The notes beneath the pieces are model-generated. The model had not been told where the DNA came from. It did not search any database and worked only from the letters and a program-made list of their open reading frames with translations. From the NCBI GenBank assembly GCA_947259645.1, contig CAMYND010000012.1, positions 20,793 through 84,792 on the forward strand: 64,000 nt of DNA, given 5' to 3'. Shown here piece by piece: positions 1-60,790 of this stretch. Position 1 is the first letter of the stretch, and the number at the start of each line of letters is the position of its first letter. Source of the stretch: Thermodesulfovibrionia bacterium (GTDB lineage: Bacteria; Nitrospirota; Thermodesulfovibrionia; UBA6902). The position numbers and the translations under genes were made by a program.

Positions 1-405
1 AAGTACGATCTGGGTAATGATATGCTTAAATTTGTTCGAAGCAACTCCGGATTTTGATTCCTCTTCCTCTTTCAGTTCAACGGTATGATGAATCTCGGTA
101 ACGGCTTTCCACAAAAGGAACAGCCCTCCTGCCAGAAGAATCAAATCCCTGACTGAAAAGTTGAGAATTACAGGTTCTGTCAGGCTGGCGAGGGTAATGA
201 TCACAAATAACATTGCTATCCGCGCCAGCATCGCAATGCTTAATCCTATGATTCTCGCTCTGTTTCTCTGCGATTCTTCAAGACGCTCTACAAAGATTGC
301 AATGACCAGAACATTGTCTACCCCCAATACCAGTTCAAGTCCTATAAGCAGTGAAAGTAGTGCAATTGAATCAACGATGGCAACCTCCTTTAGGCTGAGC
401 CCTTA
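1..405 (-). CDS. TerC-family integral membrane protein, N-terminal part (C-terminus runs off the window start); start codon not resolved
   Basis: Minus-strand translation gives ...[61 protein letters not shown]..., matching the TerC/YegH signature (LxLGxDNxxxIA ... RxRxxGL). An AAGGAGG RBS lies near 384-390 but no canonical start codon is in frame, so the start coordinate is approximate. Confidence 0.5.
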
Positions 406-408
406 CAA

Positions 409-1029
409 TTATGATGCATCTGAAGATATTTTTTTATTATATGCCTCAATCAGTACAGATGACCCGGCACCGCAGCTGATAATCGACCTCATTGCGCTCT
501 CAATCGGAACGTCGACCGGGTGGACATATTCAGCCTTTAAATGATAAATATTGCCTGATGTGGGGTTGGGGCCTGTAGGAACAAAGACCGAAAACGTGCT
601 GTCTGAATGTGAGTCTGTAATAAAGGCGGTCATCAGGGTCTCGGTACCGAAGAGCTGGACAAGGGCAACAGAGGAAAAGGGTGATTTTCTTTTCCCGATG
701 AACTGCATCACTGTTTCCTTTATCATTCTGTAGCCCGGCGCAATTTTCAGAATATAGGTTTCCAGATTATCATGAATAAATCTGCCTATTTTCGTTTTTA
801 CCGCGAGGCCGACGACAAAGCAGACCGTAAGTATGATTGCCAGAACGAACAGGTCGGCCAGCACCTCTCGCAACTGGGACTTTGCCATGACCAGGGTGGA
901 CAATGGCTGGATAATATCAGTTACAATGCCAAATATCCATTTAAAAATGAAAATAAGTATTGCGGAAGGAAGGATAACGGCCACCCCTCCGAGAAGAGAT
1001 GTCTTAATCAATGACTTTAATTTTATCAT
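409..1029 (-). CDS. DUF502 family membrane protein
   Basis: 206 aa. N-terminus MIKLKSLIKTSLLGGVAVILPSAILIFIFKWIFGIVTDIIQPL is typical of DUF502 proteins (two N-terminal TM helices, conserved LP motif). Confidence 0.5.
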   Translation of the reverse strand: MIKLKSLIKTSLLGGVAVILPSAILIFIFKWIFGIVTDIIQPLSTLVMAKSQLREVLADLFVLAIILTVCFVVGLAVKTKIGRFIHDNLETYILKIAPGYRMIKETVMQFIGKRKSPFSSVALVQLFGTETLMTAFITDSHSDSTFSVFVPTGPNPTSGNIYHLKAEYVHPVDVPIESAMRSIISCGAGSSVLIEAYNKKISSDAS

Positions 1030-1130
1030 GGTCGCCCTCTCATTTAGTGTCTGTCAAAGTTCAGGATGTTTCAATTTAAACACCCTTAACAGTTGACAGC
1101 TCAACATTATGTATATACTAATATACCTTT

Positions 1131-4100: not shown

Positions 4101-4346
4101 AGCTATATATTCAATGTTTTCAAGCCCGTCCAGCGCGTCTTCAATTTTGGTCGTGACGAGCTTTTCAACATCTTCTGCAGATGCCCCGTAATAAACCGTA
4201 CTGATTATGACCCGGCCCATATCAACGGACGGCATATTTTCTACGGGAGTTGTGAAGAGGCTGTAGACACCGCCAACAATAAGAAGGACGAAAATTACAT
4301 TAAAAAAAACTATCTGTCTAAGCGAAAACCTGACGACTGATTTCAT
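1131..4346 (-). CDS. Efflux RND transporter permease subunit (AcrB/HAE family)
   Basis: 1071 aa, 12-TM architecture with two large periplasmic loops. N-terminus MKSVVRFSLRQIVFFNVIFVLLIVGGVYSLFTTPVENMPSVD and length are typical of AcrB-like proteins. Confidence 0.9.
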   Translation of the reverse strand: MKSVVRFSLRQIVFFNVIFVLLIVGGVYSLFTTPVENMPSVDMGRVIISTVYYGASAEDVEKLVTTKIEDALDGLENIEYIASKSLRNSSVIDVKFIDDSDYESLYDELRFRVLNTKDELPADVDDPNFFYIDTQVWMPVITVDLVGDVPNRSLKLLADELKADILNISDVREVGLSGEYKREFHVSLDPDSLRKYGVTFDSVARSIISANTKIPAGRFRQGKTAYMLEAGTTLSSQEEVLNIIVRRDGDGNFIRVRDIVTTAKVSHRDPDILYSVNGKNAISLLVKKEDNGNSVTIAEKVKELSGQFESLHRADGISIQFTWDSTLEIHDSLKTLTGNMLLGIVFVVAVLWGTLGFRNAMLTAIGLPFAFLCVAIMMHFTEVSINTISIFSFVLVSGIIVDDAVIILENVYRHFQAGKASVDAIVDGVSEVMLPVFSSALTTVVAFVPMLIMTGSTGEFFSVIPKAVSFALAASLLEALFILPVHLHDWGPQKGGLSGINVKKRASHLTSGVFAFIWKKYNALLNTLLAHKVKTLFILFIVFLIAVAILVLSITGIVPLIKVEFFPSSFFRYHIPITMPRGTSIEKTNETIRDMSRFIYSQGPHQASAVAGTSGRYEDEDYSLHRGHHYGQIVVTLPDEKNKDFPENPDNDLMKHLEFVRGNLHEYLDENYPDPSQRPFIRIFPENTGPPVGKAVNIRVLGNTVNEASGAADDIMQFLRKDKEFQPLEDLTDNRASPQKVVKYAPKQEAAYEYNLSPRDITTIVAGTLNGRYAGGYRSSDEEIDLLVRLARKDDVGNFRKSGISDPSDILDVPVIEHSSSPVYLRDITDMRYSYEPDMKSRYNGQPTITITADITSGSKLSPGRVQMRVKDFFRTIAYRHPGVTISFGGEYESTSRSYMSLTFAFFIAILCIYVILASQFKDYFQPIIIISAVAFAIIGVSFGMLISRSPFTVGSFLAVVGLAGVAVNDSLILIDFINVRRREGKEMRAAVIEACSHRMRPVLITTVTTILGLLPMAIGIPSKSISWSPMATAFCTGLSSATILTLLVVPAEYELVEKIRPFFKDLLRLK

Positions 4347-4385
4347 TCATCTCCCTTTCAGAGAAGTTCCCGCGCTGCAAGAAAA

Positions 4386-5414
4386 TCAAAAATTATTTCC
4401 CTGCGGAAGAAGTTCTGTGCCGGGCTTGAGCCGGTCATCTTCTCCTGCAATGAGGTGATCTCCCTCATCTCCCAGAACAAGCAAATTAACGACCTCTTCA
4501 GTCTGCCGAATAATGACGGCAGGATTTTCATAACGCAGTGACACCGCTTTTTTCGGCACATAAATGCCGGCGGAACTGACGTTCAGGGGAAGCAAAAACT
4601 TCAGGCCGCCTCTATTCTCATCAGGATATTCTGTTATAAGGATTTCAATTGTGATTTTTCGGGTGAGTTCATCAAATTGAGGGTTGACCCAGTTGAGAGA
4701 AGCCCTGACCTGAATGCCCTGGAGAGTAGCATGAAAGGGGCTCGGCAGCGCGGAAATTGTGGACAGCTCCTCATGAGAAACAGATAACGGTACGACCAGT
4801 TTTCTGTAGTCAGAAACCTCTGCCAATGGTGTTCCGGGCTGAACCACTTCGCCTTCTTCAATGTCCCGCTTTGTAACAATCCATCCCCGGGGCGCAGATA
4901 TTTTATGACGCCTTCTGCGCTCTCTCAGATCATCCAGGGTCGTGCTTAACAGGGCTTGTTCACTCAGTGCCGATTGAAGCTCAAGATCTGCCTGGTCAAA
5001 GCGCTGCCTGGCTCTGTCCAGATCAGCTTCTGTGGCAAGCTTGTCCTCAAAAAGAGTAGAGATTCTTTTATGCTCTTTTTCAAGATATGATGCCTGAGAC
5101 CGGGCTTTTTTGATCGCAATCTCGTTTTTTTTAATAGACCTGGAAGTGCGTTCTAATTCGTAGTCAATAAAAGCGGTGTCTATCTCTATAAATGGTTTGG
5201 TACCAATGGTCTGACCAATATCATAATGGACGCTCATTACTTTTCCGGCAACCTCCGATGATACTCTTTGCGAATTGATATGACGGGTATAGCCGGTCAG
5301 TACTATTTCCTTGCGGGCTTCTGTAACAATCAGTTTATCTTCACCGTAGACTGACGTGAAAATCAACAGGAGGGAGATGGGGATAAGAGAAATGTAGTGC
5401 CTTAATACGTTCAT
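4386..5414 (-). CDS. Efflux RND transporter periplasmic adaptor subunit (HlyD/MFP family)
   Basis: 342 aa with an N-terminal signal/anchor, a coiled-coil hairpin region (ELERTSRSIKKNEIAIKKARSQASYLEKEHKR...) and beta-barrel domains. Sits 39 nt upstream of the RND permease, in operon order. Confidence 0.85.
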   Translation of the reverse strand: MNVLRHYISLIPISLLLIFTSVYGEDKLIVTEARKEIVLTGYTRHINSQRVSSEVAGKVMSVHYDIGQTIGTKPFIEIDTAFIDYELERTSRSIKKNEIAIKKARSQASYLEKEHKRISTLFEDKLATEADLDRARQRFDQADLELQSALSEQALLSTTLDDLRERRRRHKISAPRGWIVTKRDIEEGEVVQPGTPLAEVSDYRKLVVPLSVSHEELSTISALPSPFHATLQGIQVRASLNWVNPQFDELTRKITIEILITEYPDENRGGLKFLLPLNVSSAGIYVPKKAVSLRYENPAVIIRQTEEVVNLLVLGDEGDHLIAGEDDRLKPGTELLPQGNNF

Positions 5415-5777
5415 TTGAGCGGCTGCAAAGAGGTTAAGATAAATTGTTAAATTGTCACTTGTTGAAAATGCGCTTGCAGCTGGTTCCTGTTGTCCCTGAA
5501 TTAATCATAACATTACCCTAATTACAGTAAAAAAAACAACGGGTTCAGACATGAAAGCGGGGATCTGTCGATTGACCTGAAAAACTGTGATATACTTTCA
5601 TTAAGATATGTAAGAATGTTAATCGGAATATTTGATATTCAGGCAATATGACTTTCTACGAATCTCTATCGGAAGATTCTTCTGCAGAAACAATCAGCAG
5701 TATCACTACAATATCAAGGTCAATGTTAACGTCATTGAAGAGCTGCGTTTCTTGTCTGCCAAATAAAAGGAGGGAAG

Positions 5778-50123: not shown

Positions 50124-53100
50124 TCAATACTGGCCAACCCCATTAATGAACCAGCCGTGACTCCGGTAGTCAAGGTCTGTGAGGTCATCGTCAAAATCAG
50201 TAAAATTGTATCCAAGGCCAAGCTTAAAATATTTATTCATGCGCCGGTAGATGCCGATAATGAGGCCATGGCGCTGGTCATCTGCTTCCTGTACTCGCAG
50301 CCACTGATATTTCAGCAGTCCGTCCCACTTTTCGTGGAGATAGTAACGACCGATAATTGCAGCATAATCAACTTGTGTATCATACCAGTCCCCGTCACCT
50401 CGCTCTTCCCTGATCTGTCCCAGTTTATATGCGTATTTGGCCCCCACCTCAATGCTGTGTCCCAAATCATAAATTCCTTCCAAAGAGAAGACATGTGACT
50501 GTTCATCCAGATTATCTCCATCATCCTGCCCGGGCCCCCCAAGGTCATAGAGATAGGTATACTTGCCCAACATATTCAACCGGTCGTCTGAAACCGGGCG
50601 GTAGGCAAAACCTAAATCAGCTTCAATAAATTGCGCGTCACCATCAGGATCGATCCTGTCATCAGTATTGGAGATATTCAGTTTTCCCAACAGCGTTAAC
50701 CAGTCATATGCCTGATAGTTAATAGAGTTTGTTGTTAGCCACTGTTGTATCTCTTCCTGCCCGCTATCGTGGCGATACTCAAGTTTAGTTCCCGAACGTG
50801 TTTTATCATCTTTATAATTAAGTGAGACCGTTCCGACATTCCGCTCAGTGTCACCCGTTGACCCCTCTGTATCGCTTGACTGGAAGGAAATACCAAGGGT
50901 TGTCCATTTTGAAAGAGCATAGTCAAGCCCATATACCTGAGCAATGCCTGCCTGTACATCACCATGGTTGTACTGATGTTCCGTATACACATTGAGCTGG
51001 TTGCTTATTGCACTGCGCTGCCCGATAGTAAAAATACCGCGGCTGCCGTCAGTGCGGTCCTTTGAAAGGGTATACGTCCCGTAGATGGTTCTCGTGTCAC
51101 TTTGAGCATAGTCTGCACCGAGATTCACAGAACTTCCCCGGTCACCCGCACTGACTTCAGCACTGACAAATAATTTACGTATGATTTTTGCTCTTATACC
51201 AAGAGTCGCCATTTTATTGTTTTTATAGTATTCGTTTTTATCGAGCATTAATTGACCTGCGCCATATACATTGATATGAGGGGTTATATCATAGGCGAGA
51301 CGCAGGGCACCGAGAGTTCCTTGTACTTTATTCTCATCTGCCGGCTCCTCTGTAGTATGTCGCACTTCACTGCTCACCGTCCACTTATCGCCGACTCTGT
51401 AGTCTGCCTGCAGGCTTAAGGCCTTTTCTCTTTTCACTGTAGCCTGACTCAGCACGGTCCCTCGAAGAGACAGGGATAGCTCATCTGTTATGTTACCGTG
51501 GCCCTCTACACCGTATTCAACAGTCTTGTACCGATCGCTGAGGCGAGAGATTGAAAAACCGTCATCCCGTTCTTTCCACCATGCTGCTACAGCACCATCG
51601 TATTTGTTATCTGACATCTCAAGGAGATTCATACGTGCCTCGAGACTGACCGCATGACCGCTGATATCATTTGATGAAGTTATTGGATTCTTATCTGTAA
51701 AGCCCAGTCCACCATCACTTGAGGTGAAGGCATAATTACTTTGGCGGGCATCACTGGCAGCGAATTCTCCTTTTAAATACGTACCTCTTCCTGCCTTGAC
51801 GGTTACGTCAAATCCTTTGAGTTCATAGTCGGTGTTATCTCTGTTCTCATGAACATACGTTCCGCCAATGGCAATATGGTCACTAATCCAGCCTTTACCG
51901 CGCGCACCATATGTAGCCTTGTCAGCATCAAACCCACTGGGCACATACTCATAGTCAACCATTAAAAAGACATCATTTCCGTCCAGCGGCTTATCTTTGA
52001 TAATAGATGGACCGCTTTGATTCGCAATCTGGGTGAGAGGGCGTGAAAGTATAATCCGCCCCTGGATCTCATCAATCTCATAATCACGACCGCGCACAAG
52101 AGGAATATTCTCAACAACACGCTCAGTGTCACGCCCGCGTATTTCTACCCATATTTTTTCAGATCCCTGAACAAGATCAGTATTTTTCAAATAATAAAGG
52201 CTTCCGCCCGTTGCTTTGAGTTCATTATGGGCAAATGCGGTCTGAGCCTCTGACGCAAAGGCTGCCAATTCAGTACCGGTCAAACTGGTATTATAATTCC
52301 CCCACAGGACCTGGGACTTGTCCCAATCAACGCGCACATAAAACTTACCCTGGCTGTCGGTATCCTGAATAGTTGTTGAATCATCGCCATATACAGGATA
52401 AAAACGGTCAGGATCGAGTCGTCTGAAAACAGCGCGAGGATCTTTTTTATGGAGGTTACTGAATATATTATTGAGTTCATCTTCCTGCGTATCCATCTGG
52501 GCAGTAACCAGGTACTTCCCTTTGATTTTCCCCTTGAGGTAAAATGCCAGGCGCCCGTCTACAAAGACTTCTTCATCGAAGTGGTCATCAACAGACACTG
52601 GTTCAACGCTGCCGGATATGTTGTTTTCACCAACCGTTAAATCCGCTATGCCGACCATGAAGAAATAGTTTTCTGTCACATCAAGAGAAAGCTCCCTTTT
52701 CCATATCGCACCCCTTCTGTCAATAATATCTACTCTGAACGTATGCTGACCGGAAGCGAGAAGATGCTCAACAGCAAAGCTGCCATCGCTGTCGAGAGGG
52801 ACAGATTCATCATTTACCTTTAATGTGTACCCCTCCGGGATATCTGACCCATGGATCCTCACCCGGCTCCCGGCAATCGGTATCGTCTGCCGTGCCAAAT
52901 GGGACTCACCGTAGATTTCAGCGCCTTTGAACGTACCTTCGCCGGACTGTTCTTTCGTAGTGATTGAGGTGTCATCATATTCATTTACAAGATAAAGCCT
53001 TCGTGGTTTTGTTTGATCCAGATGGCCCTCACTATCATAAACTCTCAGTACATAGAGGAGTTCTTTTCCGGCACTCAGTCTGATATCTGAATCAGTTTCT

Positions 53101-56100
53101 CCTGACCATTGTACCGTGTCAGCCAGGCTGATCTTATTGCCCTTAATGACTTTAAGTGGCTTTACAAAATCAGTATCAGTTGCATGGGTAATTATTAATT
53201 CCCAATGATCAATAAAAGACCGGTAGTTTGAATATATACTAAAATCGACCGGTTTAATGAGACTTCCATCTCTTGTCATCACATTTGTTGTAGCTGTTAT
53301 ATCGAGACGCGGATCAACAATGGCAGGGTCCTGGGTTGCCCATATAACGCCGCCATCAGGAAGCCTCAGCCTGCTTCTGAGTTCCATGGAAGCCGGTTGA
53401 TTCTCCACCACCTTGCGCTTTTCTGCAGGGACTTTTTCTTCAATTACCTTCACAATAATTTCATCGTACCAGATCTCAACCTCAACCCGGCGATTCTGTG
53501 CCCTACCTTCAGGTGTGTCATTGTCAGCTATTGGTTCGTTGGGCCCTTTTCCCTCATAAGTCATGAACTCACCCGGAAGCTGGATTGCCTCCCGCAGGAC
53601 CTCTCCTGCCATTTCCGCTCGAGCTCGAGACAGACCATAATTGTTTTTATAGAGCTTCCTTGTGCGAGGTTTGACTACAGGTTTATTATCAGTGTGGCCA
53701 ATTATGTGCAGTCGGAGGTTTTTCTTGCCAGAAAGACCGTCTATTACCGTAATTAATGACTTTTTATCCGTCTCGCTGATGCGTGAATTGCCCGATTGAA
53801 AACGCAGAGGTTCTATAATATATTTCAGTTTTACTGTCTTTGTTTCGATAATTTTTCTTTGTTTTATCGTAAAGTTGCCGGAACTGTCAGAACCTGTAGC
53901 ATTCTTGTCCCGGTCAACTATTTCCATTGTGTATCCATTACTTCCGGAACAGACTGCGGTTTGACATTCTCTGCTTTTTTCAGGAAATTCATCTGCGTGT
54001 GCGGTGCCTATAAAAATATCACCGAGCATCCCGAATATGTCACCTATCATCGGCAGCACTGATCCTGATTCTCCGGAATCCTTAATCTTATCAGGTGATT
54101 CAGTTTTTGATGATGAGTCGATCAAAATGATTTTCAGATTTTTCATGATCTCTTCACCGAGGAGTTCTGTGAGAGCTTTTCGCAGACTATCTGCACGTCG
54201 AAGAGAAAGATCTTCCCGGGGATTCTCCAGAGCAACTCTTATTGTTCCATGGCGGTAAACTCTTATGGCACTTGCAATCTTCTCAATATTTGGTCGATAT
54301 TCCGAGCGGATACTGGATTGGCCGGCTTCGAAAAAGAGTTCACCCAGGTTTACCTTGACTTCTTTTTCAGGCAATGCCTGTGCTGGCAATTTTATGCCAA
54401 AGTTAATCTTACTCATTATCCCCTGGGTTATGCGCAGCACCCGCGGGTTTTCAGTAGTAAAGAGCGCACCCTGCGGCAATGTTGCGGAATCAACCTTGAT
54501 TATGAAATTGCGGCCGCGCTCGAATCGTCCGCCATCTACATCTGCTATGTGGTAGCGGCCATAAGAATCTGTTTCAATAAGAAGCCCGGAAGGAGTTGCC
54601 AGCCTGACTCCGGGAATTCCCTGTTCATGAATACCATGGTTTGTGATGGTAATCACTAACTCGTGATGGGTAGCACTCGGTGGTGTTGATGTACCGATAG
54701 GCTTACCTTCAACATTAATGGTTCTTTTCACCACAATATTCTGTCCTGTTAATCCACGGGCTTTATCTCCTCTATGTTCAGCCCTGATATTTCCTTCTTC
54801 GTCAATAATAAGCCGTGTGCCCTCTTTTGTTGTGATGATTATGTCAGAGAGGACAGCTGTATTTACCGTCGTTCGAATAATAACCTGATGATTATCAGGC
54901 AGATCAGACTCACTGCTCCGTCCAGGCAAACTGCCAACTGATATTCCTACCTCCGGGGATATATAATTTTCCTCTGCTTTCCGTGCTCCGTCACCAAAAT
55001 CAATAGTCGTATTGCTTATGTCAATCAGATCAGTCTTTATGTAAATGTCCAGAGCATCAGCAGAATCCTGCCACCCGTCTTCATCGCGGTCATTGAAGAC
55101 CTTACCAATAATTGTTGTTTTCTCAAATATCGGATCAGCAATAACCACAACGCTTTCAATGGCAGTATTCCCTATAATATTGTTATTAAAATATGGTGTT
55201 GCCCGGTTGATATATTCACCCTGAGTAATACCTGAACCGGCCCGGAGCAGATACCTGAATTGCACTTTTTCATTTCCGGCAAGGTCTATAGGCTCAAAAA
55301 TCAAGGGCCTGTAACCAGTGACGCTGATAGATGATTTGATGTCATCAGAGGTATTTATCAGTCCATCGGCTCCTGCACGCACCAACCTGGCTGAGGTATC
55401 CACATATTTAAAACCGGCTGGAATTAAGTCATGGAGAGTTATGTTGTTTATCAACATTGATTGTGTGTTTTCAGCGGTGACAGTATAGCTCACCATGTCA
55501 CCTATAGTAACTTCCTTTTTTGATGCCTTCTTTGTGAGCAGTATTGATCCGGATGACGGCGGATCAAGAGGGATGTCGTTGCCGATAAGGTCACCGCTCC
55601 CAACAATAAACCTGAATGCGAGGTAATACACGCCGGTATTAATTCCATCCGGATTATTCACTGCTGGTCCTGGTAATGGATCAGGAGCTGCCGATGGAGG
55701 GATAAGAGTTGATCTGAAGCTATAACTTGCATTCGGGGGTGTTACCTCGATAACATAGCTGGCAATGCCTGCAAGTGCCCACGCGTATGCTCCATCTGCA
55801 GCAGTTACCTGAGTAAAGGCCACAAAATCTCCCGCATCAATTACTCCATTGGTATTGTTGTCCTGGTAGATATTAACAACAGCATTTTCAATCGGATCCC
55901 CTGTTACCGCGTCGTAGACAATACCAGCAGGATCAATATATGGAAAATTAGCGATTACAGTACCGCCGGGAACCACATTAACCTGCCGTTGAGAACCTCT
56001 GAATGTACTGTTTGGCTGATCCACAACAACCATCACCGGACTTTCCATGACATTTGCAAAGGTATAGAACCCGTTAGCATCCGTAGTGGTTGTCTGTAAT

Positions 56101-59100
56101 ATAATGTCATCAGAAGTTCCACTCATCCCGTCAGGTCCAGGTGCAAGCAATTGAACCGGGATACCTATGAATTCTTCGCCGCCGGTTATAGAATTGTCAT
56201 AATTCAGATCATGAAAAACATTGCCCTCGACAATACCGCCATTGTCATCGTTTACAACAGTGGCTGTTGCCTGGTTGTCAGAGAGAGTGACGCCTCCTGT
56301 TTCATTACTGAGGTTAATGGTAAATATTTCGTTTGATTCCGAAGTTGTATCACCCGTTACATTTACCGTAATGTCCTTGCTGGTATCACCGGGCAGGAAG
56401 GAGAGCGTCGTTGTTGCAACCGCAGTATAATCACTATCTGCGACAGTGGCTGTTCCATCAGCTGTAGCATAATCAACGGTGATGGTACTGTCGCTGGGAT
56501 TGCTTAAGCTGACGGTGAATGTATAGGTTGTTATACCGGAATTGCCTTCTGCCTGTGATACATCGTTGATGCTGATGCTGGTGCTGTCATCATTATTAAT
56601 AGTTCCCTGTCCCTGATTGTCTACTATTGATATATCAGTTCCGGTTTCGTTGGAGAGATCGAGAGTAAAGGTCTCATTTGACTCTACCGTTGTGTCACCG
56701 GTCACAGTCACTGTTACGCTCTTGCTGGTCTCACCCGGGAGGAATGTGAGTGTCGTAGCGGAAATAGCTGTATAATCAGAGTCAGCAGCGGTCGCAGTCC
56801 CGTCATTTGTTGCATAATCAACGGTAACAGTGCCGGCACTGGGATTGGACAGGCTTACCGCATAGGTAAATGAAGTTGTCCCGGAATTACCCTCGGCGAT
56901 GGCAATGTCATTAATACTGATAGTCGCGCTGTCATCATTGTTCAGTGTTCCCACTCCCTGACTATCAGCGATTGTTGCTCCAGTCCCGCTTGTCAGGTCA
57001 ACGGTAAAGGTTTCATCTGTTTCTACAGTAGTATCACCGTTTGTGCTAACAGTGATATTCTTGCTGATCTCACCGGGGAGAAACGTGAGCGTGGTAGTCG
57101 AGATAGCTGAATAATCAGTGTCAGCTACGGTGGCAGTCCCGTCGTTTGTTGCATAATCAACGGTAACAGTGCTGGCACTGGGATTTGAAAGGGTTACATT
57201 AAAGGTAAATATTGTTGTGCCGGAATCACCTTCGGTGATGGCGGCATCATTAATTGAAATAGTGGTACCATCGTCATTGTTAATGGTTCCCTGCCCCTGA
57301 TTGTCCGCTATTGAGACATCAGATCCGGTTTCATTGAAGAGATCAACCGTAAAGGTCTCATTTGACTCTACGGTTGTATCACCGGTCACATTCACTGTAA
57401 CGTTCTTGCTGGTCTCATTGGGGAGAAAGGTGAGCGTGGTAGTCGAGATAGCTGAATAATCGGTATCAGCTACGGTGGCAGTCCCGTCGTTTGTTGCATA
57501 ATCAACGGTAACAGTGCCGTCACTGGGATTTGAAAGGGTTACATCAAAGGTAAATGAAGTTGTAGCGGCATTACCCTCGGCAGTGGCAATATCATTAATG
57601 CTTATAGCCGTACTGTCATCGTTGTTGAGTGTTCCCACACCCTGGCTGTCTGCTATAAATGCTCCAGAAGGGCTGGTCAGATCAACCGTAAAGGTCTCAT
57701 TTGACTCTACGGTTGTATCACCGGTCACATTCACTGTAACGTTTTTGCTGGTCTCACCGGGGAGAAAGGTGAGCGTGGTAGTAGAGATAGCTGAATAATC
57801 ACTGTCAGCTTCAGTGGCAGTCCCATCGTTTGTTGCATAATCAACAGTAACAGTGCCGGCACTGGAGTTGGAAAGGGTCAGGTCAAAGGTAAATGATGTT
57901 GTGCCTGAATTGCCCTCGGCTATAGCTACGTCATTGATTGAGATCGTTGGCAGTACCGTCAATGTGACCGGGCCGAATGCTGAGCCTGTCAGCCCCACAG
58001 GACCTGAAGCAGATGGTGCGCTCGTGGTGTTATTGTTTGTGCTGGTGGCACTGACACTTTGCGTGATCGTACAGGTGCCGCCGGGCACAATGGTGCCGCT
58101 ATTGAAACCTACAGTCGTGTCGCCATTGACTCCTCCGGTGAGGGTTGCGCTGCCAGCTCCGCTGCAGACCACACTGCCCGCGGCATTGTTAACCAGCGTG
58201 CCCGTATATATGTCGTTGATGCTGACACCGGTCAGATTGCCGGGATTGCCAGCCGGGTTGCTCACTGTGATTACCATGCTGGATGTGCCGCCTGCGGAGA
58301 TTGATGTCGGGGTGAAACTCTTCGTAACTATCGGTTTGGCATAGACATTTATCGTATCTGATGCTGGTCCGGCATTGTTGCCGGATGATGTCTGCAAGGC
58401 GCCGGCTGGAATCGTATTTGTAGCAGTACCCTCGGTGCTGCTCGTAACATTAACAACAACAGTACATCCGCCTGACGATATGGATGTGCCGCTGGCAATC
58501 GTGAAATTCGTTGCAGATGCCAAAGCACTGACTCCGGCACAGCTACCTGTATTTCCCGCTGTATTAATGGTCATACCGGTCGGGAAGGTGTCGGTAAAGA
58601 TGCTCGTGAGCGTGATTGCCCCTACATTCGAGTTACCAATGGTAACGGTAAGGTCAGTATTATCACCGCTGGCAAGATCGCTTGCAGCAAATGACTTTGT
58701 TATGGTCGGAACAACAGTATCATTATCCGTAATAGTCCCGGTGCCGGTATCAGAGTCACCAACAGCGGTATTGGAAGCGGTCAGATTGACCGTATAGGTC
58801 TCACTTGCTGCTTCCAAAAGTGCACCTCCGGTTGCCGTAACATCAGCAAACCCAACCGTGACGGTAAAGGCGCCTGCTGCCACTTCATTATCCAGCGTAA
58901 CGGTATAGAGCATTCCGGTGCCCTCAGTTTCGGTTACATTATCCACCGTAACAGATGCGCTGTCATTGTCCGTAATAGTCCCGGTGCCGGTATCAGAGTC
59001 ACCAACCGCGGTATTGGAAGCGGTCAGATTGACCGTATAGGTTTCACTTGCTGCTTCCAAAAGCGCATCATCCAGGGTTGGCACGGTAAACTGCTGTGTC

Positions 59101-59174
59101 TCCCCTGCGGTACCGGCAAAGTTCAAGACAACAGCGTCATTGCCATAGTCTTCAGGACTGGCTGAGGGTAACAA
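50124..59174 (-). CDS. Giant cell-surface protein: Calx-beta tandem repeats, SdrD-B/Cna-B-like and DUF11 domains, internal OmpA-like peptidoglycan-binding domain, and a long C-terminal region (possible outer-membrane beta-barrel). Probably continuous with 59152..60513.
   Basis: 3016-aa ORF. At least 8 Calx-beta-like units (DYATNDGTAT...SKNVTVNVTGDTTVESNETFTVDL...NNDD). DANGFYTF (SdrD-B/CarboxypepD_reg-like). DUF11-like GSILLTKKASKKEVTIGDMVSYTVTAEN. OmpA-C-like RLHIIGHTDNKP...YGLSRARAEMAGEVL...GRAQNRRVEVEIW. A C-terminal region of about 1100 aa rich in alternating aromatic/Gly-Asp-Tyr beta-strand-like patterns, ending ...FINGVGQY. Confidence 0.8.
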   Translation of the reverse strand: MLPSASPEDYGNDAVVLNFAGTAGETQQFTVPTLDDALLEAASETYTVNLTASNTAVGDSDTGTGTITDNDSASVTVDNVTETEGTGMLYTVTLDNEVAAGAFTVTVGFADVTATGGALLEAASETYTVNLTASNTAVGDSDTGTGTITDNDTVVPTITKSFAASDLASGDNTDLTVTIGNSNVGAITLTSIFTDTFPTGMTINTAGNTGSCAGVSALASATNFTIASGTSISSGGCTVVVNVTSSTEGTATNTIPAGALQTSSGNNAGPASDTINVYAKPIVTKSFTPTSISAGGTSSMVITVSNPAGNPGNLTGVSINDIYTGTLVNNAAGSVVCSGAGSATLTGGVNGDTTVGFNSGTIVPGGTCTITQSVSATSTNNNTTSAPSASGPVGLTGSAFGPVTLTVLPTISINDVAIAEGNSGTTSFTFDLTLSNSSAGTVTVDYATNDGTATEADSDYSAISTTTLTFLPGETSKNVTVNVTGDTTVESNETFTVDLTSPSGAFIADSQGVGTLNNDDSTAISINDIATAEGNAATTSFTFDVTLSNPSDGTVTVDYATNDGTATVADTDYSAISTTTLTFLPNETSKNVTVNVTGDTTVESNETFTVDLFNETGSDVSIADNQGQGTINNDDGTTISINDAAITEGDSGTTIFTFNVTLSNPSASTVTVDYATNDGTATVADTDYSAISTTTLTFLPGEISKNITVSTNGDTTVETDETFTVDLTSGTGATIADSQGVGTLNNDDSATISINDIAIAEGNSGTTSFTYAVSLSNPSAGTVTVDYATNDGTATAADSDYTAISATTLTFLPGETSKSVTVTVTGDTTVESNETFTLDLSNETGTDISIVDNQGQGTINNDDSTSISINDVSQAEGNSGITTYTFTVSLSNPSDSTITVDYATADGTATVADSDYTAVATTTLSFLPGDTSKDITVNVTGDTTSESNEIFTINLSNETGGVTLSDNQATATVVNDDNGGIVEGNVFHDLNYDNSITGGEEFIGIPVQLLAPGPDGMSGTSDDIILQTTTTDANGFYTFANVMESPVMVVVDQPNSTFRGSQRQVNVVPGGTVIANFPYIDPAGIVYDAVTGDPIENAVVNIYQDNNTNGVIDAGDFVAFTQVTAADGAYAWALAGIASYVIEVTPPNASYSFRSTLIPPSAAPDPLPGPAVNNPDGINTGVYYLAFRFIVGSGDLIGNDIPLDPPSSGSILLTKKASKKEVTIGDMVSYTVTAENTQSMLINNITLHDLIPAGFKYVDTSARLVRAGADGLINTSDDIKSSISVTGYRPLIFEPIDLAGNEKVQFRYLLRAGSGITQGEYINRATPYFNNNIIGNTAIESVVVIADPIFEKTTIIGKVFNDRDEDGWQDSADALDIYIKTDLIDISNTTIDFGDGARKAEENYISPEVGISVGSLPGRSSESDLPDNHQVIIRTTVNTAVLSDIIITTKEGTRLIIDEEGNIRAEHRGDKARGLTGQNIVVKRTINVEGKPIGTSTPPSATHHELVITITNHGIHEQGIPGVRLATPSGLLIETDSYGRYHIADVDGGRFERGRNFIIKVDSATLPQGALFTTENPRVLRITQGIMSKINFGIKLPAQALPEKEVKVNLGELFFEAGQSSIRSEYRPNIEKIASAIRVYRHGTIRVALENPREDLSLRRADSLRKALTELLGEEIMKNLKIILIDSSSKTESPDKIKDSGESGSVLPMIGDIFGMLGDIFIGTAHADEFPEKSRECQTAVCSGSNGYTMEIVDRDKNATGSDSSGNFTIKQRKIIETKTVKLKYIIEPLRFQSGNSRISETDKKSLITVIDGLSGKKNLRLHIIGHTDNKPVVKPRTRKLYKNNYGLSRARAEMAGEVLREAIQLPGEFMTYEGKGPNEPIADNDTPEGRAQNRRVEVEIWYDEIIVKVIEEKVPAEKRKVVENQPASMELRSRLRLPDGGVIWATQDPAIVDPRLDITATTNVMTRDGSLIKPVDFSIYSNYRSFIDHWELIITHATDTDFVKPLKVIKGNKISLADTVQWSGETDSDIRLSAGKELLYVLRVYDSEGHLDQTKPRRLYLVNEYDDTSITTKEQSGEGTFKGAEIYGESHLARQTIPIAGSRVRIHGSDIPEGYTLKVNDESVPLDSDGSFAVEHLLASGQHTFRVDIIDRRGAIWKRELSLDVTENYFFMVGIADLTVGENNISGSVEPVSVDDHFDEEVFVDGRLAFYLKGKIKGKYLVTAQMDTQEDELNNIFSNLHKKDPRAVFRRLDPDRFYPVYGDDSTTIQDTDSQGKFYVRVDWDKSQVLWGNYNTSLTGTELAAFASEAQTAFAHNELKATGGSLYYLKNTDLVQGSEKIWVEIRGRDTERVVENIPLVRGRDYEIDEIQGRIILSRPLTQIANQSGPSIIKDKPLDGNDVFLMVDYEYVPSGFDADKATYGARGKGWISDHIAIGGTYVHENRDNTDYELKGFDVTVKAGRGTYLKGEFAASDARQSNYAFTSSDGGLGFTDKNPITSSNDISGHAVSLEARMNLLEMSDNKYDGAVAAWWKERDDGFSISRLSDRYKTVEYGVEGHGNITDELSLSLRGTVLSQATVKREKALSLQADYRVGDKWTVSSEVRHTTEEPADENKVQGTLGALRLAYDITPHINVYGAGQLMLDKNEYYKNNKMATLGIRAKIIRKLFVSAEVSAGDRGSSVNLGADYAQSDTRTIYGTYTLSKDRTDGSRGIFTIGQRSAISNQLNVYTEHQYNHGDVQAGIAQVYGLDYALSKWTTLGISFQSSDTEGSTGDTERNVGTVSLNYKDDKTRSGTKLEYRHDSGQEEIQQWLTTNSINYQAYDWLTLLGKLNISNTDDRIDPDGDAQFIEADLGFAYRPVSDDRLNMLGKYTYLYDLGGPGQDDGDNLDEQSHVFSLEGIYDLGHSIEVGAKYAYKLGQIREERGDGDWYDTQVDYAAIIGRYYLHEKWDGLLKYQWLRVQEADDQRHGLIIGIYRRMNKYFKLGLGYNFTDFDDDLTDLDYRSHGWFINGVGQY
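56300..57900. repeat. Near-identical tandem DNA repeats (period about 342-345 nt, at least 4 copies) encoding the Calx-beta units inside the giant gene
   Basis: The same 60-nt strings (e.g. ggcagtcccgtcgtttgttgcataatcaacggtaacagtgc...) recur at about 56790, 57130, 57480 and 57815. A further about 85-nt exact duplicate lies at 58735-58820 / 58975-59060. Confidence 0.6.
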
Positions 59175-60513
59175 TTACCGTTTCAGTTCCCTCAAATAGA
59201 GCATCATCCAACACCGGTACATCGATGGTAGCACTCAGGGTATTGGCAGGAATGGTCACTGTGCCGGAGAGCGTTGTATAGTCATTACCTGCTCCAGGAG
59301 TGGCTGTACCAGAGATTCCGTAGCTGACCACTGTTGCAGTTGGGCTCGTCTTGGAAAGAGAAACTGTAAATTGACCATCAGTAGAGGGCTCAGCACCATG
59401 AGTAGTGGCAGCAACACTGACAGTTGCGGTTTCATCATCGCTGATCGTATAGGTATTGGTGCTTTGGGCAACAGAATTGTTGTTGGAATCCCCAATGCTG
59501 AACCCACTGCTCGGGTTGGCTAATGTAAACTCAATAGTTTCATTAAGTTCCAATAGGGCATCATCATCGATGCTGAGATTAATCGGGATGGCGTCTGCTG
59601 ATGTCCCGTTGTATGTACCTGCCGGAACAGTGACACTTACTGTATGAGTATAATCAGTACCACTGCCGGTAGCATTGCCGCCCGTAACGGTAACGTCAAT
59701 GGTTTGACTGGTTGATAGAGTCCCATATACGATTAGTTCGGGTATATCACCACCACTCGCCTCTGCATCGCCATTCGTGGCCGCTGCAAACTCCACCGAT
59801 ACATTTGGGGTATAGCTGAAATCATGTAAATTTATCCATTGAAGGCCGATAGTTGCGTTGGGTGCATCATTTCGGTACAAAATGGTAACCAGGGTTATAT
59901 TTGACTGATTGAATGTAAAAATAGCGTTCCCGTTAGCGGACGTAGATGCTGAAGTATTCGTTCCTCTTATTGTGTTTAAGCCGACCTGGGTATTCGCACT
60001 TGCTGTGGTGATGGAGGATGGATTAATAGTACTTCCGTTAAATGCGGTAACAGTAAGTTGATCTATATATTGAGAACCATCGCTGTCCACATCAAAAAAT
60101 GTAAAGGTGATGCCGGAAGATCCTACGGGATAGTCTGAAAAATCCAACGTAATCGTATATTCAGGATCTGAAGCGTCAGGATAAGTCGATCTCAGAAAGA
60201 GGCCGTTTTCTGCAGGCATAAGTCCGCCAGTATTTGTCTGATTAATACTGGGACTGTCATCTGTTGCGCCGCCATTACCAAGCCATGCTGTGTTTCCGGT
60301 CCAGGTGACTACAACGTTCCGTGGGCCGCCGGTAGCTGTGCCATCTACTGAAAAGGTTTCGCTCAGATTGCTCCTTCCAGCGGGGACCCATGTTTCTACA
60401 TCCCAGTCAAGAAGGGCTGCTTCAGCATTAACTGACAGGAATATAACGACAATTAAATAACTGAAAAATGAACGTGATAAGACAAATTTTCGAAATCTAA
60501 TGGACATATTCAA
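59152..60513 (-). CDS. Signal-peptide-bearing N-terminal portion (453 aa) of the giant surface protein; ends in the middle of a Calx-beta unit, +1 frame relative to the 50124..59174 ORF
   Basis: Sec signal peptide MNMSIRFRKFVLSRSFFSYLIVVIFLSVNAEA. Calx-beta-like units (TIDVPVLDDALFEGTETVIVTLSQS*). The downstream ORF begins ...SPEDYGNDAVVLNFAGTAGETQQFTVPTLDDALLE in the adjacent frame with a 23-nt overlap. Confidence 0.7.
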   Translation of the reverse strand: MNMSIRFRKFVLSRSFFSYLIVVIFLSVNAEAALLDWDVETWVPAGRSNLSETFSVDGTATGGPRNVVVTWTGNTAWLGNGGATDDSPSINQTNTGGLMPAENGLFLRSTYPDASDPEYTITLDFSDYPVGSSGITFTFFDVDSDGSQYIDQLTVTAFNGSTINPSSITTASANTQVGLNTIRGTNTSASTSANGNAIFTFNQSNITLVTILYRNDAPNATIGLQWINLHDFSYTPNVSVEFAAATNGDAEASGGDIPELIVYGTLSTSQTIDVTVTGGNATGSGTDYTHTVSVTVPAGTYNGTSADAIPINLSIDDDALLELNETIEFTLANPSSGFSIGDSNNNSVAQSTNTYTISDDETATVSVAATTHGAEPSTDGQFTVSLSKTSPTATVVSYGISGTATPGAGNDYTTLSGTVTIPANTLSATIDVPVLDDALFEGTETVIVTLSQS

Positions 60514-60761: not shown

Positions 60762-60790
60762 TTGACAATGTGTCATCTGGCGACTATAAT
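60762..60790 (+). promoter_or_regulatory. Consensus sigma70 promoter (TTGACA-N17-TATAAT) with an overlapping inverted repeat (CATCTG...CAGATG), upstream of the Xre-RES toxin-antitoxin operon
   Basis: tttgacaatgtgtcatctggcgactataat. TGTCAT direct repeats and the CATCTG/CAGATG inverted repeat bracket the -10 box, a likely antitoxin operator. Confidence 0.5.

What the first reader, a model, noticed from the sequence alone, without database searches (positions are those of the whole stretch)
50124..60513. Giant secreted surface protein (about 3470 aa if the two frames are joined) with an internal OmpA-like domain and a +1 frame break inside a Calx-beta unit
ORF 59152..60513 (signal peptide plus Calx-beta units) stops in the middle of a Calx-beta repeat (…TETVIVTLSQS*). 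The 3016-aa ORF begins in the adjacent frame, 23 nt earlier, with the start of the next Calx-beta unit (…SPEDYGNDAVVLNFAGTAGETQQFTVPTLDDALLE…). So this is either one gene carrying a frameshift (sequencing error, true pseudogenisation, or a slippage-prone phase-variable site) or a split gene. The combined protein has an unusual layout: N-terminal Calx-beta array, then SdrD-B-like and DUF11 domains, then a bona fide OmpA-C-like peptidoglycan-binding domain in the middle, then about 1100 aa of beta-rich C-terminal sequence that may be an outer-membrane barrel. An OmpA-like domain placed between a large passenger and a C-terminal barrel is atypical for known autotransporter or adhesin topologies.
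Basis: seen in the sequence. Interest (0 to 1): 0.65.

Follow-up and report, generated by a model that had tools for sequence, protein, structure and literature searches.

The report
Giant surface protein fused to barrel
This is one very large cell-surface repeat protein fused to its own large outer-membrane barrel and carrying cell-wall-binding domains in the middle; it belongs to a widespread but undescribed two-gene/fused system, and the frame break near its start is a local lesion in a repeat array, not a regulated switch.

Summary
The two ORFs, the +1 offset and the domain order are real. ORF A (59152-60513, minus strand) has a signal peptide, a head domain and Calx-beta units. ORF B (50124-59174) has Calx-beta, DUF7933, SdrD_B, DUF11, a bona fide OmpA-like domain, then 1112 aa that AlphaFold2 models as beta-sandwiches plus about 34 long strands read as a large barrel.

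The break is not a simple slip. The junction is out of register between Calx units, about 75 residues are missing, and the next unit has an internal deletion beside a 105-nt, 96%-identical repeat. There is no slippery or simple-repeat site. Misassembly and recent deletion cannot be told apart from the sequence.

The main result concerns the C-terminal module. It is a strongly conserved family (978 clusters at E<=1e-30) with no Pfam, NCBIfam or PDB match.
- In 47 of 49 loci where it stands alone (about 1200 aa), a giant repeat-protein gene lies immediately upstream.
- In 38 of 46 of those, the giant protein ends in an OmpA-like domain.
- About half of the family is fused, as here.

I infer an autotransporter-like (fused) or two-partner-like (split) display system, with the chain pinned to peptidoglycan. 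That mechanism is untested.

The parts
60418..60513 (-). Start of ORF A (TTG 60511-60513, or ATG 60505-60507) and Sec-type signal peptide, ORF A residues 1-32, predicted cleavage after NAEA
   Evidence: Translation: basic n-region, hydrophobic core, AxA-like c-region. It is the most hydrophobic 19-aa window of ORF A. No signal-peptide predictor was available.
59806..60417 (-). N-terminal head domain (ORF A residues 33-236), fold and ligand unknown
   Evidence: No Pfam hit. It is 41% identical to the N-terminus of another DUF7933/DUF11 giant protein in L006 5944-6525.
59155..59805 (-). Calx-beta unit 1 (complete) and unit 2 (cut after ...ETVIVTLSQS, last ~25 residues missing)
   Evidence: Pfam Calx-beta at ORF A residues 362-452, profile positions 5-96 of 119. 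Unit alignment.
59152..59174 (-). Frame-break junction: the 23-nt overlap of ORF A (stop TGA 59152-59154) with ORF B (+1 frame)
   Evidence: The join is out of register between Calx units. No homopolymer, simple repeat or slippery motif is present in ...ACCCTCAGCCAGTCCTGAAGACTAT...
58713..59159 (-). Damaged Calx region: a half unit (ORF B 6-71, middle plus C-terminal part only), then a unit lacking its middle 37 aa (ORF B 72-154). Includes the 105-nt direct repeat 58963-59067 / 58720-58824 (96% identical)
   Evidence: Joining the N-half of the second unit to the half unit reconstitutes a complete Calx-beta unit.
57975..58709 (-). Two DUF7933 domains (ORF B ~156-400)
   Evidence: Pfam PF25564, 83.3 bits, 2 stretches.
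56241..57947 (-). Array of five 113-115-aa Calx-beta units (339-nt tandem repeat 56584-57920)
   Evidence: Pfam Calx-beta, 5 stretches. TRF period 339, 3.9 copies. Repeat family D1. Alignment.
55185..56237 (-). SdrD_B-like / CarboxypepD_reg-like domains (ORF B ~980-1200) and a DUF11 domain (1211-1330)
   Evidence: with scores above the Pfam cut-offs.
54375..55112 (-). Conserved beta-rich module before the OmpA-like domains (ORF B ~1355-1600; ...IPGVRLAT..ETD.YGRYH..TENPRVLRIT..INFGIKLP). Candidate stalk or plug that contacts the barrel
   Evidence: Conserved in fused relatives and in the tails of split-system giant proteins. AF2 model pLDDT 70-92, all-beta. The role is inferred.
54117..54353 (-). 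OmpA-like domain 1, degenerate (ORF B ~1608-1686). Corresponds to the C-terminal OmpA-like domain of the giant protein in split systems
   Evidence: Pfam OmpA 19.5 bits, E 0.0013, below the cut-off. Alpha/beta fold in the AF2 model. 38 of 46 split-system giants match OmpA at this position.
53949..54065 (-). Fusion joint: signal-peptide-like stretch SVLPMIGDIFGMLGDIFIGTAHA|DE followed by CQTAVC (ORF B 1704-1742), inside an ~80-aa segment modelled as disordered
   Evidence: Most hydrophobic 19-aa window of ORF B. Conserved in L001, L002 and L003. In split systems the same position holds the barrel protein's real signal peptide and Cys pair. pLDDT ~30.
53466..53807 (-). OmpA-like domain 2, bona fide peptidoglycan-binding type (ORF B 1790-1903; GHTD...LSRARA...NRRVEVEI)
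   Evidence: Pfam PF00691 57.5 bits. AF2 pLDDT 80-92. Foldseek top hits are 3td3 (A. baumannii OmpA-like, TM 0.81, rmsd 2.9 A), OprF, TagL and MotB.
52623..53375 (-). Beta-sandwich domains at the start of the conserved C-terminal module (module residues 30-280)
   Evidence: AF2 model, pLDDT 77-91. Conserved in alignment A1.
52233..52622 (-). Most conserved stretch of the family (module residues 281-410; GRLAFYLKGKIKGKYLVTAQMDT...LDPDRFYPVYGDDST...WGNYNT). AF2 gives it low confidence
   Evidence: Dense invariant columns in A1. pLDDT 30-48. Function unknown.
50127..51974 (-). Large outer-membrane beta-barrel: about 34 strands of 7-16 residues (module residues ~497-1112), ending ...GWFINGVGQY
   Evidence: DSSP of the AF2 model. 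Foldseek probability 1.0 to LptD, TonB-dependent transporters, MtrB and Deinococcus SlpA, and 0.91-0.99 to the T9SS translocon entries 8gl6_A/6h3j_A. PF13505 OMP_b-brl is recorded on many homologues. The C-terminal aromatic residue is conserved.
50124..50126 (-). Stop codon of ORF B

Best explanation
Shown: ORF A and ORF B are the two pieces of one gene of about 3460 codons. It encodes a giant repeat protein: signal peptide, head domain, then Calx-beta, DUF7933, SdrD_B and DUF11 modules. This protein is fused to its own large outer-membrane beta-barrel. The gene is the fused form of a widespread, uncharacterised two-gene system. In the split form, gene 1 encodes a giant repeat protein with its own signal peptide and a C-terminal OmpA-like domain. 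Gene 2 abuts or overlaps gene 1 by 4 nt and encodes a protein of about 1200 aa with its own signal peptide, a Cys pair, a remnant or complete OmpA-like domain, beta-sandwich domains and a barrel of about 34 strands. In the window the two genes are joined. This leaves two OmpA-like domains (the first degenerate) and a fossil signal peptide at the joint.

Inferred mechanism:
1. Sec exports the precursor.
2. The C-terminal ~615 residues are inserted by BAM as a very wide barrel.
3. The OmpA-like domain(s) stay in the periplasm and bind peptidoglycan.
4. The N-terminal repeat region reaches the cell surface through the barrel lumen. The conserved beta-rich module before the OmpA-like domains sits in or at the barrel.
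5. The chain is thereby held on both sides of the outer membrane. Topologically this is autotransporter-like when fused and two-partner-like when split. Function: adhesion or a surface matrix.

The frame break at 59152-59174 is a local lesion of the Calx-beta array. It is an out-of-register junction with about 75 residues missing, and there is a second, in-frame loss 240 nt downstream. It is either a misassembly of the repeat array or a recent deletion/rearrangement. As written, ORF B has no signal peptide, so the gene would be non-functional.

The confidence of 0.6 is a blend: about 0.85 for the shown part (one gene, fused member of this family, barrel, OmpA-like domains) and about 0.5 for the inferred threading mechanism.
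For: One gene.
- ORF A carries the signal peptide and a head domain that is also found at the N-terminus of another DUF7933/DUF11 giant protein.
- ORF B starts mid-domain and has no signal peptide.

Family.
- 2656 homologues of the last 1112 aa at E<=0.001 (only the 8000 best word-sharing candidates were scored), most covering 97-100% of the query.
- 978, 2337 and 3316 cluster representatives (50% identity) at E<=1e-30, 1e-10 and 1e-3. The module is C-terminal in nearly all of the 150 listed.
- 589 or more loci among species-representative genomes of several phyla.

Two-gene form.
- 47 of 49 stand-alone barrel genes have a giant ORF directly upstream on the same strand, and 23 of these overlap by 4 nt.
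- RefSeq annotation of S. meliloti plasmid NZ_CP021807.1 shows a 3362-aa 'DUF11 domain-containing protein' overlapping a 1261-aa 'hypothetical protein'.
- The giant proteins have N-terminal signal peptides and OmpA-like C-termini. 38 of 46 match Pfam OmpA in their last 200 aa.
- The barrel proteins have their own signal peptides.

Fused form.
- Intact single ORFs of 2215-4069 aa exist, for example L035 in a complete chromosome with Calx-beta x10, DUF11, SdrD_B, OmpA x2 and the module.
- 81 of the 150 best representatives are 1500 aa or longer, up to 7402 aa.

Barrel and OmpA.
- AF2 and Foldseek results for the barrel.
- OmpA: Pfam 57.5 bits and TM 0.81 to 3td3.

No other conserved neighbour gene was found downstream of the barrel gene.

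The lesion is local. Seven other large genes in the window match their NCBIfam profiles over their length.
Against: - No experiment or structure supports threading through the barrel.
- I could not inspect model coordinates, so barrel closure, strand number and lumen size rest on the DSSP string and on Foldseek matches with low TM scores (0.15-0.31).
- The most conserved part of the module is modelled with low confidence.
- How a 2000-7000-aa passenger would cross without an energy source is unknown.
- The first OmpA-like domain in the window is degenerate (19.5 bits).
- The cause of the frame break cannot be decided. The window's own proteins are absent from the protein collection, and no close relative of ORF A was found in the metagenome collection.
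- The literature search covered only open-access text, so a prior description elsewhere cannot be excluded.
Confidence: 0.6

Rival explanations
1. The frame break is an assembly or consensus artefact. The true genome carries an intact gene with complete Calx-beta units, and the assembler took a wrong path through near-identical repeats.
For: - The junction and the neighbouring odd unit lie in a repeat array with a 105-nt, 96% repeat.
- The pieces present can be re-ordered into one perfect unit.
- More than 9 kb of ORF B and 1.36 kb of ORF A carry no other stop.
- Other large genes in the window look intact.
- The contigs of the two nearest relatives both start inside the Calx-beta array further downstream in the gene.
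- One relative carries 10-nt and 11-nt tandem duplications that shift its frame.
Against: - The two abnormal junctions (TLSQS|PEDY and ATGG|ALLEAAS) are out of register. They share no long identical sequence that a k-mer assembler would confuse.
- Collapse of a repeat normally gives in-register joins.
- No reads are available.
Confidence: 0.45
2. The break is real. A recent deletion or rearrangement in the Calx array has inactivated the gene in this strain or in the dominant population variant. ORF A would give a short secreted fragment, and ORF B would not be exported.
For: - The joins are out of register with little or no homology, which is typical of illegitimate deletion.
- There are two separate lesions within 450 nt.
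- Large repeat adhesin genes are often found disrupted. For example, the giant ORF upstream of the barrel gene in the Leucothrix arctica isolate lies in two frames.
- The locus lies between toxin-antitoxin genes and a low-GC stretch, suggesting a variable region.
Against: - The remaining 9 kb ORF is free of stops and conserved (71% identical to L001 over residues 1275-3016). Any inactivation must therefore be very recent.
- There is no independent sequence of the same lineage.
Confidence: 0.42
3. The break is a programmed +1 ribosomal frameshift or a phase-variable slippage site that regulates expression.
For: - The shift is +1 and occurs at a stop codon (TCC TGA A), superficially like prfB.
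Against: - There is no slippery P-site codon (UCC to CCU re-pairs poorly).
- There is no upstream Shine-Dalgarno-like element.
- There is no homopolymer or short tandem repeat.
- The protein domains are discontinuous across the join, with about 75 residues missing.
- Intact fused homologues need no shift.
Confidence: 0.03
4. The C-terminal module is not a translocon for the repeat region. It is a porin-like or tethering barrel that links the outer membrane to peptidoglycan (SlpA/OmpM-like). The giant repeat protein is either periplasmic or exported by another pathway and only docks on the barrel.
For: - The longest near-full-length structural alignment is to the Deinococcus SlpA outer membrane-cell wall connector (TM 0.27-0.31 over ~1100 columns).
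- Both partners carry peptidoglycan-binding domains.
- No evidence bears on the translocation step itself.
Against: - The barrel gene is almost always tightly coupled to a giant gene (47 of 49, often with a 4-nt overlap), and the two have fused repeatedly into one polypeptide.
- No secretion-system gene is conserved downstream.
- Calx-beta, Big_9, cadherin-like, CshA and DUF11 arrays are typical of extracellular proteins (established knowledge).
- An array of 2000-7000 aa is too long for the periplasm.
Confidence: 0.2

Closest known systems
Classical autotransporters (type Va secretion)
   Same: One polypeptide with an N-terminal Sec signal, a large N-terminal passenger and a C-terminal outer-membrane barrel. 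The chain must pass the membrane once, so that the barrel starts from the periplasmic side. This topology allows a periplasmic domain to sit between passenger and barrel.
   Different: - No PF03797 autotransporter beta-domain hit.
- About 34 strands instead of 12.
- Roughly 500 aa of extra conserved domains precede the barrel.
- One or two OmpA-like peptidoglycan-binding domains lie between passenger and barrel.
- A split two-gene form is at least as common as the fused form.
Two-partner secretion (type Vb, TpsA/TpsB)
   Same: The split form is a two-gene operon: a giant secreted repeat protein plus a dedicated outer-membrane barrel protein, each with its own signal peptide. No other component is conserved downstream.
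   Different: - The barrel is not Omp85-like: no POTRA or ShlB hit, and about 34 rather than 16 strands.
- The cargo has no N-terminal TPS domain.
- The cargo ends in an OmpA-like domain, which implies retention rather than release.
Inverse autotransporters (type Ve, intimin/invasin)
   Same: A periplasmic peptidoglycan-binding domain lies next to the barrel, and a passenger made of Ig-like repeats is displayed on the surface.
   Different: - The order is reversed. Intimin has LysM, then barrel, then a C-terminal passenger. Here the passenger is N-terminal.
- The peptidoglycan-binding domain is OmpA-like, not LysM.
- No intimin-barrel (IAT_beta) hit.
- The barrel is about three times larger.
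Deinococcus SlpA / OmpM-type connectors between outer membrane and cell wall
   Same: A very large barrel (30 strands in SlpA) is combined with a peptidoglycan-binding periplasmic domain in one chain. This is the longest near-full-length structural alignment found (8agd_A, 8ae1_A).
   Different: - SLH domain and coiled coil instead of OmpA-like domains.
- No giant repeat passenger.
- TM only 0.27-0.31, and no sequence similarity.
Protein-in-barrel complexes (LptD/LptE, MtrB/MtrA) and T1SS adhesins retained in their outer-membrane channel (LapA, MpIBP)
   Same: These are precedents for a wide barrel that holds part of another protein in its lumen, and for a giant adhesin held at the surface by a periplasmic stopper domain. 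LptD and MtrB are among the Foldseek hits.
   Different: - No homology was shown.
- LapA-type adhesins use a T1SS, C-terminal RTX repeats and an N-terminal stopper. Here there are no RTX repeats and no T1SS-type genes among the flanking genes examined, and the stopper would be C-terminal.

Membership tests
OmpA_C-like peptidoglycan-binding domain (PF00691) | Profile match above the curated threshold | tested here: met
   57.5 bits against a cut-off of 27.2, ORF B 1791-1895, profile positions 1-98 of 98.
OmpA_C-like peptidoglycan-binding domain (PF00691) | Beta/alpha/beta fold of solved OmpA-like domains | tested here: met
   AF2 pLDDT 80-92. Foldseek hit to 3td3 with TM 0.81, rmsd 2.9 A and 32% identity. 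Also hits OprF, TagL, MotB and YfiB.
OmpA_C-like peptidoglycan-binding domain (PF00691) | Actual binding of peptidoglycan (DAP-contacting Asp and Arg) | not testable with these tools
   The motifs GHTD, LSRARA and NRRVEVEI are present in the sequence. Binding itself needs a pull-down assay.
Classical autotransporter (type Va) | C-terminal 12-strand autotransporter beta-domain (PF03797) | tested here: not met
   No such Pfam hit at E<=0.01. The AF2 model has about 34 strands.
Classical autotransporter (type Va) | Signal peptide, N-terminal passenger and C-terminal barrel in one chain | tested here: met
   if ORF A and ORF B are joined.
Two-partner secretion (type Vb) | Omp85-type TpsB with POTRA domains, and TpsA with an N-terminal TPS domain | tested here: not met
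   No POTRA, ShlB or TPS hits in the window protein or in the split-system proteins scanned.
Inverse autotransporter (type Ve) | N-terminal barrel (IAT_beta) followed by a C-terminal passenger, with a LysM domain | tested here: not met
   The domain order is the reverse, and there are no IAT_beta or LysM hits.
T1SS RTX adhesin (LapA/SiiE/MpIBP type) | C-terminal RTX repeats and secretion signal, with adjacent ABC/MFP/OMF genes | tested here: not met
   No HemolysinCabind hit. The C-terminus is a barrel. The flanking ORFs that were scanned (60821-61788) are a RES/Xre toxin-antitoxin pair, and 48103-48465 has no hit. By eye, the translations of ORFs 62294-63756 are a 228-aa ABC ATPase and a 259-aa permease, too small for a T1SS.
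Uncharacterised 'giant OmpA-tailed repeat protein + ~1200-aa barrel protein' system (defined here) | Full-length homology to the ~1100-aa C-terminal module, placed at the C-terminus | tested here: met
   Among the 120 listed homologues most cover 97-100% of the query; 42-74% identity. Many invariant columns. 978 representatives at E<=1e-30.
Uncharacterised 'giant OmpA-tailed repeat protein + ~1200-aa barrel protein' system (defined here) | Repeat-rich cargo with a signal peptide, a DUF11/SdrD_B region and an OmpA-like domain just before the barrel protein part | tested here: met
   The OmpA-like domain at the cargo tail is degenerate in the window (19.5 bits) but present in 38 of 46 split systems and in fused relatives (2 OmpA stretches in L002, L035 and L073).
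Programmed +1 frameshift (prfB-like) or phase-variable simple-repeat site | Slippery codon with an upstream SD-like stimulator, or a homopolymer/short tandem repeat at the shift site; continuous protein across the shift | tested here: not met
   Junction sequence. Domain discontinuity.

The most novel reading that the evidence does not exclude
The ~1100-aa C-terminal module and its giant OmpA-tailed partner form a previously undescribed outer-membrane display system for giant adhesins. In this reading, a barrel of about 34 strands, unrelated in sequence to any type V barrel, serves as both conduit and socket. The adhesin is threaded through it and locked to peptidoglycan by an OmpA-like stopper. 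The system exists in interchangeable split (two-partner-like) and fused (autotransporter-like) forms across Pseudomonadota, Desulfobacterota, Nitrospirota, Myxococcota and Campylobacterota.
Probability: 0.35. Interest if true: 0.85.

Novelty: new variant of a known kind. Interest (0 to 1): 0.62.

Why it matters
Giant adhesins of Gram-negative bacteria are currently explained by type I or type V secretion. This locus fits neither.

The family it belongs to has about a thousand diverged clusters. It includes members in Stenotrophomonas maltophilia, Sinorhizobium meliloti, Vibrio campbellii, Ralstonia and many marine and sediment lineages. It has no Pfam or NCBIfam model and no solved structure, and its annotation is inconsistent: hypothetical protein, TonB-dependent receptor or OmpA family protein.

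If the barrel really carries and anchors the giant protein, this would be a further route of surface display. It would also be one of the largest single-chain barrels known, and a new way of coupling the outer membrane, the cell wall and the cell surface. It is testable in culturable hosts.

The frame break itself matters only for annotation. The two ORFs should be treated as one (possibly disrupted) gene, not as two genes.

Tried and rejected
- Programmed frameshift or phase variation: rejected from the junction sequence and the domain discontinuity.
- General poor base quality: rejected. Seven other large genes match their NCBIfam profiles over their length, and coding density is normal at 89%.
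- ThrRS and IF3 first looked N-terminally short. ThrRS matches its profile fully, and IF3 continues upstream in the same frame, probably from a non-ATG start.
- External check of the junction: failed.
  - The window's own proteins are not in the protein collection (no self-hit).
  - No close relative of ORF A was found in metagenome contigs (best 35% identity).
  - The contigs of the nearest relatives start inside the Calx array, downstream of the junction.
- Sequence search of PDB with the module and with its profile: nothing.
- Promoter and terminator scans were uninformative.
- Accessory genes conserved downstream of the barrel gene: none. The one cluster shared by 6 loci is the start of another DUF7933/DUF11 giant gene.
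- Internal translation start at ATG 54050 for a separate barrel protein: the ribosome-binding-site context is weak. Kept only as a note.
- Seven literature searches found no description of the family.
- The profile search of representatives failed because the profile exceeded 1200 positions. It was rerun with the single sequence.

Full report
**1. Observation**

The minus strand carries ORF A (59152..60513, 453 aa) and ORF B (50124..59174, 3016 aa). They overlap by 23 nt, and ORF B is in the +1 frame.

ORF A starts with a Sec-type signal peptide, MNMSIRFRKFVLSRSFFSYLIVVIFLSVNAEA|A. A 200-aa head domain with no Pfam match follows, then one complete and one truncated Calx-beta unit.

Pfam on ORF B gives:
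- Calx-beta, 243 bits;
- two DUF7933 domains;
- DUF11;
- OmpA at residues 1791-1895 (57.5 bits, cut-off 27.2).

SdrD_B and CarboxypepD_reg pass their cut-offs when residues 960-1210 are scanned alone. The last 1112 aa match nothing in Pfam, NCBIfam or, by sequence, PDB.

**2. The frame break**

I aligned all Calx-like units.
- ORF A's second unit stops after ...DDALFEGTETVIVTLSQS, about 25 residues short of a full unit.
- ORF B begins at (S)PEDYGNDAVVLNFAGTAGE..., which is the middle of a unit. The N-terminal half (about 50 residues) is absent.
- The following unit (ORF B 72-154) has its N-half joined directly to its C-terminal part and lacks the middle 37 residues.
- The C-terminal parts of these two units are a 105-nt direct repeat, 96% identical (58963-59067 and 58720-58824).
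- Joining the N-half of the second unit to the half unit gives a perfect Calx-beta unit.

The region therefore carries two out-of-register joins, not a one-base slip. The junction sequence ACCCTCAGCCAGTCCTGAAGAC has no homopolymer, short tandem repeat, slippery codon or SD-like element. Other large genes in the window match their family profiles over their length, and coding density is normal. The defect is therefore local to the repeat array.

I could not decide between misassembly and a real recent deletion.
- The source is not in the protein collection.
- No near relative of ORF A exists in the metagenome collection.
- The contigs of the two closest relatives (L001, L002; Desulfobulbaceae-type MAGs, 72-74% identical) begin inside the Calx array, downstream of the junction.
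- L001 also has frame shifts of its own, caused by 10-nt and 11-nt tandem duplications.
- ORF B stays open for 9 kb, so the lesion is either recent or artificial.

**3. The C-terminal 1112 aa**

A word-indexed search found 2656 homologues. Most are stand-alone proteins of about 1200 aa from Gammaproteobacteria. Some are 1500-1900-aa proteins that also carry OmpA, DUF11 and SdrD_B.

An exhaustive phmmer search of 1.84 billion cluster representatives gave 978 hits at E<=1e-30 and 2337 at E<=1e-10. The module is at the C-terminus in nearly all of the 150 best. 81 of those are 1500 aa or longer, up to 7402 aa.

The family is strongly conserved: mean column identity is 56% over 48 sequences, with about 170 invariant columns.

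AlphaFold2 (pLDDT 71) models three regions:
- residues 30-280 as beta-sandwich domains;
- residues 281-410 with low confidence, although this is the most conserved stretch;
- residues ~497-1112 as about 34 consecutive long antiparallel strands.

Foldseek against PDB returns only large outer-membrane barrels. These are LptD, TonB-dependent transporters, MtrB, the FimD usher, Deinococcus SlpA (aligned over ~1100 columns, TM 0.27-0.31) and the T9SS translocon entries (8gl6_A, 6h3j_A). All are at about 9% identity and low TM. The chain ends ...GWFINGVGQY, with a conserved terminal aromatic residue. I read this as a very large BAM-type barrel. I could not inspect coordinates, so closure and the exact strand number are not verified.

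**4. Comparative context**

A scan of one genome per species found at least 589 loci. They come from Stenotrophomonas, Lysobacter, Pseudoxanthomonas, Luteimonas, Kangiella, Granulosicoccaceae, Leucothrix, Cocleimonas, Campylobacterales, Nitrospirae, Myxococcales and Desulfobulbaceae. Plasmid and chromid records add Sinorhizobium, Phyllobacterium, Sulfitobacter, Ralstonia, Eleftheria and Vibrio campbellii. Their annotations are inconsistent: hypothetical protein, TonB-dependent receptor or OmpA family protein.

Of 78 loci analysed, 49 have a stand-alone barrel gene.
- In 47 of these, the gene immediately upstream on the same strand is a giant ORF, either 960-3240 aa or running to the contig edge.
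- In 23, its stop overlaps the barrel ORF's first start codon by 4 nt.
- RefSeq annotation of S. meliloti plasmid NZ_CP021807.1 shows the same pair: a 3362-aa 'DUF11 domain-containing protein' and a 1261-aa 'hypothetical protein'.

The giant proteins have variable repeats (Big_9, cadherin-like, DUF7927, DUF7507, CshA, Calx-beta). They share a constant tail of DUF11, SdrD_B, a beta-rich module and an OmpA-like domain at the extreme C-terminus. 38 of 46 match Pfam OmpA in the last 200 aa. They have N-terminal signal peptides, and the barrel proteins have their own signal peptide followed by a Cys pair. No other gene is conserved downstream of the barrel gene.

The other 29 loci are fused. Eight of them are complete single ORFs of 2215-4069 aa. 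One example is L035 from a closed chromosome, with ten Calx-beta units, DUF11, SdrD_B, two OmpA domains and the module.

**5. The fusion joint in the window**

ORF B 1608-1686 corresponds to the cargo's C-terminal OmpA-like domain. It is degenerate (19.5 bits) but is modelled as alpha/beta.

An ~80-aa segment modelled as disordered follows. It contains SVLPMIGDIFGMLGDIFIGTAHA|DE...CQTAVC. This is the most hydrophobic stretch of ORF B. It is conserved in L001-L003 and is positionally equivalent to the barrel protein's signal peptide and Cys pair in split systems.

Next comes the bona fide OmpA-like domain (pLDDT 80-92; TM 0.81 to 3td3), and then the module.

**6. Mechanism (inferred)**

The facts that bear on mechanism are:
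- tight and repeated coupling or fusion of a giant extracellular-type repeat protein with a dedicated very large barrel;
- signal peptides on both partners;
- peptidoglycan-binding domains at the cargo's C-terminus and the barrel protein's N-terminus;
- no other conserved component downstream.

From these I infer that the barrel is the conduit and socket for the giant protein. The repeats are outside. The conserved beta-rich module before the OmpA-like domain sits at or in the lumen. The OmpA-like domains are periplasmic stoppers bound to peptidoglycan. Topologically this matches type Va when fused and type Vb when split. The defining features of types Va, Vb and Ve and of T1SS adhesins were tested and are not met (see the membership table).

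The main alternative is that the barrel is only a tether or porin, with the cargo docking on it. I give that 0.2.

**7. Verdict**

The frameshift is ordinary: a lesion or an artefact in a repeat array. The architecture is a real, recurrent and apparently undescribed system, and that is the reason for the interest score. I found no paper describing it in the searchable library. That library is incomplete.

Noticed in passing
window 53949-54065 (ORF B residues 1704-1742); L001, L002, L003 equivalents: Fused family members keep a signal-peptide-like hydrophobic stretch with an AxA motif and a CxxxxC pair between the two OmpA-like domains. It could be a fossil of the barrel gene's signal peptide, an internal signal-peptidase site that re-splits the fused precursor, or the leader of an internally initiated barrel protein (ATG at 54050, weak RBS).
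   Followed up: partly
window 52233-52622 (module residues 281-410): The most conserved stretch of the whole family (GRLAFYLKGKIKGKYLVTAQMDT...LDPDRFYPVYGDDST...WGNYNT) is the part AlphaFold2 models worst (pLDDT 30-48). It may be a segment that folds only with the partner.
   Followed up: no
L001 625-650 and 1425-1445 (GCA_947259735.1, contig CAMYNN010000032.1): The closest homologue is broken into three frames by a 10-nt tandem duplication (acccgatgga x2) and an 11-nt one (tacttctgata x2). These look like assembly or polishing artefacts rather than biology.
   Followed up: partly
L012 2-5661 (Leucothrix arctica IMCC9719, NZ_QGKL01000044.1): In this isolate genome the giant gene upstream of the barrel gene lies in two overlapping frames (2..2863 and 2776..5661). 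This is another interrupted giant gene of the same system.
   Followed up: no
L006 5869-8481: Directly after the barrel gene, a second giant gene begins (DUF7933 x4, DUF11). Its N-terminal domain is 41% identical to the head domain of ORF A. In six loci the ORF following the barrel gene is a homologue of this second giant gene.
   Followed up: partly
window 60821-61788 (+): A RES/Xre (ParT/ParS-type) toxin-antitoxin pair is transcribed divergently, immediately upstream of the giant gene. A consensus sigma-70-like promoter (TTGACA-17-TATAAT) lies at 60762-60790.
   Followed up: partly
window 48500-50000: There is a low-GC stretch (0.36, against about 0.44-0.47 in the giant gene) with only small ORFs, just downstream of the giant gene. 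A 120-aa ORF at 48103-48465 has no NCBIfam hit. This may be a variable or mobile flank.
   Followed up: no
window 36761-36835 and 36997-43102: tRNA-Val(GAC) is followed by the thrS-infC-rpmI-rplT-pheS-pheT cluster. PheT (684 aa) matches only positions 158-798 of the bacterial profile in its best stretch, so its N-terminal domain may be reduced.
   Followed up: no
window 13758-15524 and 28624-31518: A 2-oxoacid:acceptor oxidoreductase alpha subunit and a PhsA/QrcB-like molybdopterin oxidoreductase are present. Together with the nearest relatives being Desulfobulbaceae MAGs, this points to an anaerobic sulfur-cycling Desulfobacterota host.
   Followed up: no
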